From Eledone cirrhosa (lineage: Eukaryota): a stretch of DNA of 64,000 nt. A model generated the notes under the pieces. That model saw only the letters and a list, made by a program, of their open reading frames with translations, was not told the origin of the DNA and searched no databases. How positions within the stretch are numbered: position 1 is the stretch's first letter; each line of letters opens with the position of its first letter. The DNA is taken from NCBI GenBank assembly GCA_964016885.1, contig OZ024743.1, forward strand, positions 305,598,001 through 305,662,000. Direction: 5' to 3'. The position numbers and the translations under genes are program-made. Of the stretch, positions 24,488 through 61,513 are shown one piece after another.

Positions 24488-61513
<37,026 letters not shown>

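What the first reader, a model, noticed from the sequence alone, without database searches (positions are those of the whole stretch)
25353..25369. Palindromic ACTAGT stem III predicts a double hammerhead formed between neighbouring units
Seen: stem III is only ACTAGT, self-complementary and too short to be stable alone. GAAACTAGTA was unchanged in every copy I read. Stem II is closed by U.U instead of the usual G10.1-C11.1 pair. Established: minimal hammerheads of newt satellite 2 and Penelope-like elements cleave efficiently as dimers through palindromic stem III. Inference: tandem organisation may be functionally required, with adjacent units pairing through ACUAGU/ACUAGU.
Basis: partly seen in the sequence, partly recalled or inferred. 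Interest (0 to 1): 0.75.

Follow-up and report, generated by a model that had tools for sequence, protein, structure and literature searches.

The report
Retrozyme array with dimer-type hammerhead ribozyme
This is one of 71 head-to-tail copies of a roughly 500-base jumping element, present in tens of thousands of copies in this genome, each carrying a hammerhead-ribozyme sequence that likely cuts its own RNA best when two copies pair up, which is a design already described in newts and axolotls.

Summary
Observation confirmed. GAAACTAGTA is in 71 of 71 units. Helix III is one A-U pair plus a CUAG loop, and helix II is closed by U·U. The motif is a canonical extended type I hammerhead in a non-LTR retrozyme with about 28,000 cores genome-wide. 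Across subfamilies the core and ACTAGT stay fixed, while helix I pair 3 covaries (G·U, U·G, A-U). A third subfamily has C·A instead of U·U. Folding favours the double hammerhead over two single ones by 11-13 kcal/mol. The published precedents are axolotl HHR_Amex1 (1-bp helix III) and HHR_Amex2 (U·U), both better as dimers (PMC7229834). 'Tandem organisation required' is only partly supported. 92 of 119 sampled insertion arms hold one hammerhead, a trans dimer is equally favourable, no palindrome-preserving change was found, and part of the array is a DNA-level duplication. Extra finding: insertions carry a Penelope-like footprint (32 of 32 arm pairs divergent, tail on one arm in 28 of 32, (TA)n targets), shared with a recently active Hydra-type element next door. 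Nothing was assayed. Verdict: new member of a known kind.

The parts
25179..61513 (+). Main arm of the insertion: 71 head-to-tail retrozyme units (about 455-690 bp, length set by an internal (TA)n), ending in the roughly 70-nt tail next to genomic (TA)n
25047..25178 (-). Short inverted arm at the 5' end of the array, without tail, next to genomic (TA)n; a second copy of this signature lies at 30219-30240
   Evidence: junction position read by eye
25303..25331 (+). 5' strand of extended helix I (distal helices 25303-25321, loop-1 bulge 25322-25325, 6-bp helix I strand 25326-25331), unit 1
25332..25338 (+). Core C3-A9 (CUGAUGA); N7 is U or C by subfamily
25339..25352 (+). Helix II: U10.1·U11.1 mismatch, 4 bp, 4-nt loop 2 (third base varies)
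25353..25361 (+). G12-A13-A14 plus palindromic hexamer A15.1-CUAG-U16.1 (25356-25361): 1-bp helix III alone, predicted 6-bp helix III in a dimer
25362..25363 (+). Predicted cleavage site after H17 (GUA); inferred from hammerhead consensus, not observed
   Evidence: sequence; consensus as in PMC4209133
25363..25385 (+). 3' strand of extended helix I, with invariant loop-1 U at 25369
25519..25603 (+). Internal (TA)n of unit 1, present in every unit
24486..25046 (.). Left flanking (TA)n-type microsatellite (target)
61514..63081 (.). Right flanking (TA)n-type microsatellite (target)

Best explanation
The site is the helix III and predicted cleavage site of an extended type I hammerhead repeated in all 71 units of a tandem array, which belongs to a non-coding repeat family with about 28,000 cores in this genome and is likely a non-LTR retrozyme whose ribozyme likely cuts weakly alone and better as a double hammerhead. 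Shown: the anatomy, the copy number, subfamily conservation of the core, helix I covariation, and Penelope-like insertion ends. Inferred cycle: read-through transcripts of loci with two or more units fold two hammerheads together by swapping helix I strands and forming a 6-bp ACUAGU duplex. Both sites would cut and release a unit-length RNA, which a host RtcB-type ligase would circularise. In the circle the lone 1-bp helix III would keep the ribozyme nearly silent, so the circle would last. A (TA)n-targeting Penelope-like reverse transcriptase/endonuclease would copy the RNA from a fixed 3' start, past the junction, for one to several rounds, giving inverted two-arm insertions. The partner hammerhead need not be the adjacent unit. 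The 71-unit length of this array reflects later DNA duplication, not a need of the ribozyme.
For: Core: 0 of 11 core columns and 0 of 6 hexamer columns have a second state in at least 10% of 79 loci, against 18 of 36 columns just downstream (the 18 counted from the printed list). Variation falls on N7, loop 2, H17 and helix I pair 3, which is G·U 78, U·G 58, A-U 10, unpaired 6 of 152. ACTAGT is in 140 of 152 sites found by flanking anchors only, in 13,865 of 14,250 exact helix II matches followed by CTAGTA, and in 13 of 16 rows of the C10.1 subfamily, where 10.1, 11.1 and H17 all changed (counted by eye). Folding: double hammerhead 10.9-13.0 kcal/mol better than two single ones in 6 of 6 pairs; circles 68-71% paired with the single active fold 8.5-12.3 kcal/mol above the ensemble in 4 of 4. 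Precedent: axolotl monomers cleaved 6% (1-bp helix III) and 22% (U·U) in 1 h, dimers much more (PMC7229834). Mobility: 32 divergent and 0 convergent arm pairs; tail on exactly one arm in 28 of 32; 46 of 50 tails followed by (TA)n. These match the Penelope-like hallmarks in PMC8557442. Insertions run through the cleavage site, with no excess of 5' ends there. A Hydra-type element with the same architecture lies 2 kb away; 32 of 150 scored matches to its endonuclease are 100% identical (its own place included) and 6 lie in frames over 850 aa.
Against: No cleavage or expression was measured. The double hammerhead is only 0.1-2.2 kcal/mol better than two hammerheads with helix III open, and 5.0-9.9 kcal/mol worse than the free ensemble, where a register-shifted helix pairs C3-U4-G5 with the helix III bases. 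It needs a strand swap of a long helix I. There is no palindrome-preserving double change (0 of 12 variants), and conservation of the four loop bases alone is weak evidence (about 0.06 if half the columns vary). Rfam gives only a sub-threshold Hammerhead_HH9 hit (18.5 bits, E 0.54, gathering 52) and none at gathering level. In a 2026 preprint 8 of 9 predicted frog retrozyme dimers did not cleave in vitro. The unit has no similarity to the neighbouring element's repeats, so the driver is not identified. Loci were the first listed on contig C1, not a random sample.
Confidence: 0.62

Rival explanations
1. Same retrozyme, but the extended hammerhead cleaves well enough as a monomer. Loop 1-loop 2 contacts would hold the fold despite the 1-bp helix III, and the palindrome is inherited or only modulates the rate.
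For: Loop-1 U (152 of 152), the last A of loop 2 (151 of 152) and the GUA bulge (149-151 of 152) are as conserved as the core. Newt monomers cleave when helix I has internally looped extensions (PMC6155905 passage). Coral and mussel retrozyme monomers cleave at about 0.8 and 0.1 per min. There is no covariation in the palindrome.
Against: Invertebrate monomer-active hammerheads are described with 2-bp helix III; the 1-bp and the U·U axolotl forms were each weak as monomers, and this one has both features. The single active fold lies 7-12 kcal/mol above the free ensemble in 5 of 5 hammerheads folded.
Confidence: 0.2
2. One reading: cleavage needs two adjacent units in cis, so tandem organisation is obligatory and selected for.
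For: Cis adjacency gives high effective concentration. Single-hammerhead insertions could be dead ends and only multimers sources (an assumption also made in the 2026 preprint). 27 of 119 arms have two or more hammerheads.
Against: A trans double hammerhead scores -60.0 against -43.2 for two single folds and -58.2 for two free monomers. Tandems are explained by more-than-unit reverse transcription and later DNA duplication (units 1-9 match 14-22 with 0-3 differences). Some monomer cleavage was seen even for weak axolotl forms.
Confidence: 0.1
3. The hammerhead is nearly inactive. The family spreads as uncleaved read-through RNA copied by Penelope-like enzymes (a non-autonomous Penelope-like element), and the motif is a relic or a protein-binding handle.
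For: No excess of 5' ends at the cleavage site. The free fold is an inactive register. 8 of 9 frog elements were inactive in vitro.
Against: Catalytic positions are fixed across subfamilies that differ at half the flanking columns, and the only tolerated core changes are at N7 and H17.
Confidence: 0.08

Closest known systems
Non-LTR retrozymes of animals, especially axolotl HHR_Amex1 and HHR_Amex2 (Cervera and de la Pena 2020, PMC7229834; read parts 1-4 of 6, supplement unreadable)
   Same: Tandem non-coding repeat, low GC, one canonical type I hammerhead per unit, tens of thousands of copies, up to 62-mers in coral. Amex1 has a single base pair capped by a palindromic tetraloop. Amex2 has U·U at the base of helix II. 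Both cleave much better as dimers.
   Different: This hammerhead has both weaknesses at once. The unit is longer (about 420-690 bp against 170-400 nt) because of an internal (TA)n. Expression and circles are untested here. The inverted two-arm, one-tail, (TA)n-targeted insertion pattern is not described in the parts I read.
Newt satellite 2 and Dolichopoda pDo500 satellite hammerheads (review passages PMC6155905, PMC6466107; passages of PMC2837043)
   Same: Satellite-like arrays of 330-500 bp units with an unstable helix III, double-hammerhead models, and hammerhead region more conserved than the rest.
   Different: In pDo500 the proposed double hammerhead keeps helix III intramolecular. Newt monomers with extended helix I can also cleave.
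Minimal hammerheads of Penelope-like elements (Cervera and de la Pena 2014, PMC4209133, parts 1-2 of 4; Lunse et al. seen only through reviews, not held)
   Same: Type I, palindromic positions 15.2-16.2 and loop 3, proposed dimer action.
   Different: Those have a 7-8 bp helix II, 4-5 bp helix I, poorly defined loop 1, an extra base after A9 and a conserved G10.1-C11.1. This motif has none of these features.
Retrozymes as non-autonomous Penelope-like derivatives (Li, Clavereau, Pollet 2026, bioRxiv 10.64898/2026.07.22.740005, parts 1-3 of 5, supplements closed) and Penelope-like insertion structure including the Hydra clade (Craig et al. 2021, PMC8557442, passages and section 11)
   Same: Monomers, dimers and multimers coexist. 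Inverted 5'-truncated copy, tail at one end, (TA)n targets.
   Different: The preprint argues from co-occurrence and pLTR homology. Here the evidence is the insertion footprint, the tail is about 70 nt rather than 30-40, and no pLTR homology to the neighbouring element was found.

Membership tests
Type I hammerhead ribozyme | Core CUGANGA, GAAA, NUH in type I order | tested here: met
   68 of 71 units fully intact; 148-152 of 152 at each core position
Type I hammerhead ribozyme | Helices I and II with support from covariation | tested here: met
   Helix I pair 3 takes three pair types in 146 of 152 sites; helix II pairs are nearly invariant, so they say little
Type I hammerhead ribozyme | G10.1-C11.1 (usual, not universal) | tested here: not met
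   U·U in 152 of 152; C·A in 13 of 16 rows of a third subfamily; the same U·U is published for active HHR_Amex2
Type I hammerhead ribozyme | Match to an Rfam hammerhead model at gathering score | tested here: not met
   None at gathering; Hammerhead_HH9 18.5 bits against 52
Type I hammerhead ribozyme | Loop 1-loop 2 tertiary contact | tested here: inconclusive
   Internal loop in helix I with invariant U, and loop 2 ending in A; likeness to the Schistosoma contact is recalled, not from a call
Type I hammerhead ribozyme | Self-cleavage after H17 | not testable with these tools
   Needs an assay
Double (dimeric) hammerhead of newt/axolotl type | 1-2 bp helix III with palindromic loop, in tandem copies | tested here: met
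Double (dimeric) hammerhead of newt/axolotl type | Palindrome kept through compensatory change | tested here: inconclusive
   Unchanged across three subfamilies; 0 of 12 variants palindromic
Double (dimeric) hammerhead of newt/axolotl type | Dimer cleaves faster than monomer | not testable with these tools
   Only folding energies
Non-LTR retrozyme | Short tandem, low-GC repeat with a type I hammerhead in every unit, dispersed in the genome | tested here: met
   71 of 71 units; GC about 0.30-0.34; 28,448 cores against 5 for the reversed control
Non-LTR retrozyme | No coding capacity and no LTR, PBS or PPT | tested here: inconclusive
   A 420-690 bp unit with internal (TA)n cannot hold an RT and no LTR structure appears in 83 loci; ORFs, PBS and PPT were not scanned inside the array
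Non-LTR retrozyme | Expressed as unit-length linear and circular RNA | not testable with these tools
   Needs RNA data or a northern blot
Minimal Penelope-like hammerhead | Long helix II, short helix I, no defined loop 1, G10.1-C11.1 | tested here: not met
   4-bp helix II, 6-bp helix I with long extension against PMC4209133
Element mobilised by Penelope-like machinery | Inverted 5'-truncated partner, tail at one end, microsatellite target | tested here: met
   32 of 32 divergent; 28 of 32 with one tail; 46 of 50 tails followed by (TA)n
Element mobilised by Penelope-like machinery | Sequence homology to an autonomous element's pLTR | tested here: inconclusive
   None to the two other hammerhead elements of the window; other families in the genome not compared

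The most novel reading that the evidence does not exclude
A probably invertebrate retrozyme whose hammerhead is doubly weakened (1-bp palindromic helix III plus a 10.1·11.1 mismatch kept as U·U or C·A) so that it acts as a copy-number switch, cutting only in pairs and staying silent in the circle, and whose insertions record the action of a still-active Hydra-type Penelope-like enzyme. That would give a matched template and enzyme to test directly whether Penelope-like machinery moves retrozyme circles.
Probability: 0.3. Interest if true: 0.58.

Novelty: new member of a known kind. Interest (0 to 1): 0.36.

Why it matters
The dimer idea itself is established for this class, so the original finding mainly adds a family. 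Two things give modest extra value. First, the insertion footprint (divergent arms, one tail, (TA)n target) is structural evidence for a link between retrozymes and Penelope-like enzymes, which the papers I read support by co-occurrence and pLTR homology. Second, three natural subfamilies supply ready variants (U·U or C·A at 10.1·11.1, GUA or GUU triplet, three pair types in helix I) to test what a weakened hammerhead needs. Searches for prior description were limited to seven full-text searches; none listed this family, but subscription papers and supplements were not visible.

Tried and rejected
1) 5'-end hotspot at the cleavage site. Counts fell from 26,677 to 23,710 on extending 5 nt across the site, against 23,710 to 22,514 for the next 5 nt. 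This looked like in-vivo cleavage evidence. It is not: 1,783 sites have a non-A at H17, mostly a third subfamily, and only 1 of 60 printed rows (L135) starts near the site. The remaining loss (about 4.8% over 4 nt) is close to background. 2) Expression: no RNA holder listed; this is no evidence either way. 3) Reads: of four runs laid, X23 and X4 gave 0 and X5 one contig. X1 gave 3,544 contigs whose 21 listed differences avoid the core and the hexamer, but X1 may be the source sample or species, so it is not counted as independent. A second lay on other runs did not complete, so variation in other organisms is untested. 4) Rfam: mir-297, mir-466 and similar hits are to (TA)n and far below gathering. 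5) The 20-nt doublet with CTGATGA at 24246-24286 has no GAAA partner after it and was not pursued as a hammerhead. 6) Circle against multimer template: units within an arm differ by median 3 and opposite arms by median 2 per about 136 nt, against 30 between loci, but the nearest unit in another locus also differs by median 2, so this does not separate the two. 7) My count of tail-less arms followed by (TA)n used a marker that also matches inside the unit; not used. The upstream 'outside' columns are inflated by 5' truncation; only downstream columns were used. 8) Pfam found nothing significant for the neighbouring ORF. 9) No earlier findings of the scan matched.

Full report
What is at the coordinates. 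Window 25353-25369 is the second half of a hammerhead core: GAAA, a four-base loop, U16.1, H17 (A) and the 3' strand of helix I. Upstream lie a 6-nt helix I strand (25326-25331), CUGAUGA (25332-25338) and helix II, which has four pairs, a four-base loop and a U·U closing mismatch (25339, 25352). Helix I continues past an internal loop for about 17 more pairs. The motif is therefore an extended type I hammerhead, not a minimal one. Rfam does not call it at gathering level and gives only a weak Hammerhead_HH9 match (18.5 bits, E 0.54).

The array. GAAACTAGTA occurs 71 times, all on the + strand, from 25353 to 61189. Two unrelated anchors also count 71 units. Each unit has an internal (TA)n that sets its length. 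The array is flanked by long (TA)n tracts and starts with a short inverted fragment. Units differ by a mean of 8.9 per 290 nt. Units 1-9 match units 14-22 with 0-3 differences, and the inverted-start signature recurs at 30219-30240. Part of the array therefore arose by DNA duplication (or assembly duplication, which I could not exclude).

Is the invariance more than chance? Over 70 aligned units, 209 of 356 columns are invariant. The longest invariant run, 16 columns, covers this motif (permutation P=0.022). Ten given columns have P=0.005, but the four loop bases alone have P=0.12. Since units share ancestry, this is modest support.

The family. The genome holds 28,448 matches to CUGAHGA-N12-20-GAAACUAGUA against 5 for the reversed control. 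Of 14,250 exact helix II matches, 13,865 continue with CTAGTA. I examined 83 loci from the first 49 Mb of contig C1, chosen from the top of the match lists and so not random. In 152 sites from 79 of those 83 loci, found by flanking anchors only, the hexamer was intact in 140 and U·U in 152. None of the 12 variant hexamers is a palindrome. No core or hexamer column has a subfamily-level second state, against 18 of 36 columns just downstream. Helix I pair 3 is G·U in 78, U·G in 58 and A-U in 10, which is real covariation. A third subfamily has C10.1, mostly A11.1 (13 of 16 rows) and H17=U, yet keeps ACTAGT in 13 of 16 rows (counted by eye). So a non-canonical 10.1·11.1 pair is the conserved feature, not U·U as such.

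Folding. A double hammerhead needs helix I strands swapped between units and is nested. In 6 of 6 adjacent pairs it is 10.9-13.0 kcal/mol better than two single hammerheads with the A15.1-U16.1 pair. It is only 0.1-2.2 better than two hammerheads with helix III open, and 5.0-9.9 worse than the unconstrained ensemble, in which the core pairs with the helix III bases in a shifted register. The same dimer in trans scores -60.0 against -58.2 for two free monomers, so adjacency is not needed on energy grounds. Unit circles are 68-71% paired. These models ignore tertiary contacts and kinetics.

How it moves. Among 119 arms in 83 loci, 92 hold one hammerhead and 27 hold two or more; 92 of 171 hammerheads are alone in their arm. 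Opposite-strand arms are divergent in 32 of 32 pairs. Exactly one arm carries a tail of about 70 nt in 28 of 32 pairs, neither in 4, both in none. 46 of 50 tails are followed by (TA)n. The window's array fits this pattern. Inverted 5'-truncated partners, a tail at one end and microsatellite targets are described for Penelope-like elements (PMC8557442 passages). At 20345-23030 lies a truncated Penelope-like element with the same layout and its own hammerhead. Its endonuclease linker reads CxCX5C, the Hydra-clade motif, a clade reported to insert into (TA)n in aquatic invertebrates; the Atlas lists GIY-YIG clusters at 0.95-0.96. That family looks recently active: 32 of 150 scored matches are 100% identical and 6 lie in frames over 850 aa. 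The retrozyme unit shows no similarity to its repeats, so it is a candidate driver only. Insertions run through the cleavage site and show no excess of 5' ends there. The template was therefore continuous across the site: a re-ligated circle or an uncleaved transcript. My data do not separate these.

Comparison with what is known. Cervera and de la Pena 2020 (PMC7229834; parts 1-4 of 6 read, supplement unreadable) define non-LTR retrozymes. They report axolotl HHR_Amex1, with one pair capped by a palindromic tetraloop (6% monomer cleavage in 1 h), and HHR_Amex2, with U·U at the base of helix II (22%); both were much more efficient as dimers. They propose RtcB-type ligation and Penelope-like mobilisation. 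Their 2014 paper states that most metazoan hammerheads have a 1-2 bp helix III with a palindromic loop, that dimer action can protect monomer circles, and that minimal Penelope-like dimers cleaved poorly. A review passage records monomer cleavage by extended newt hammerheads. A 2026 preprint links retrozymes to Penelope-like pLTRs and found cleavage in 1 of 9 dimers tested (supplements closed). The likeness of the loop 1-loop 2 bases to the Schistosoma contact is my recollection, not a tool result. The host taxon was not determined; 'invertebrate' rests on the Hydra-type neighbour.

Verdict. It is a known mechanism in a known class. Obligatory adjacency is unproven and partly contradicted. The most useful addition is the insertion footprint pointing to Penelope-like enzymes. 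Novelty: new member of a known kind. Interest 0.36.

Noticed in passing
window 20345-23030: 5'-truncated Hydra-type Penelope-like element on the minus strand (GIY-YIG fragment 21628-22593), inverted repeats each with a type I hammerhead (22840 +, 20430 -) whose helix III is an 8-nt AT palindrome; in (TA)n, tail on one arm; family recently active.
   Followed up: partly
window 63082-63780: Third hammerhead-bearing element: divergent arms with cores at 63341 and 63457 (-) and 63583 (+), a 116-bp duplication, flanked by (TA)n; its helix III is only quasi-palindromic.
   Followed up: partly
window about 4900-11750: Two decayed non-LTR retrotransposon copies with endonuclease-like and reverse-transcriptase-like ORF fragments on the + strand; L1/Tx1-like by my recollection of the motifs, not searched.
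   Followed up: no
window 30106-30321: Internal inverted fragment identical in kind to the array's 5' start (signature 30219-30240), between units 10 and 11.
   Followed up: partly
window 25326-25331 and equivalents: 19 of 70 units in this array have U·U at helix I pair 3, a state rare elsewhere (3 of 152) that lowers the predicted stability of the active fold.
   Followed up: partly
L131, L133, L136, L141, L143, L144, L146: Third subfamily with C10.1·A11.1 and a GUU triplet; at most about 1,800 copies by pattern count.
   Followed up: partly
window 24246-24286: 20-nt direct doublet beginning with CTGATGA inside an unrelated repeat fragment; no GAAA partner follows.
   Followed up: no
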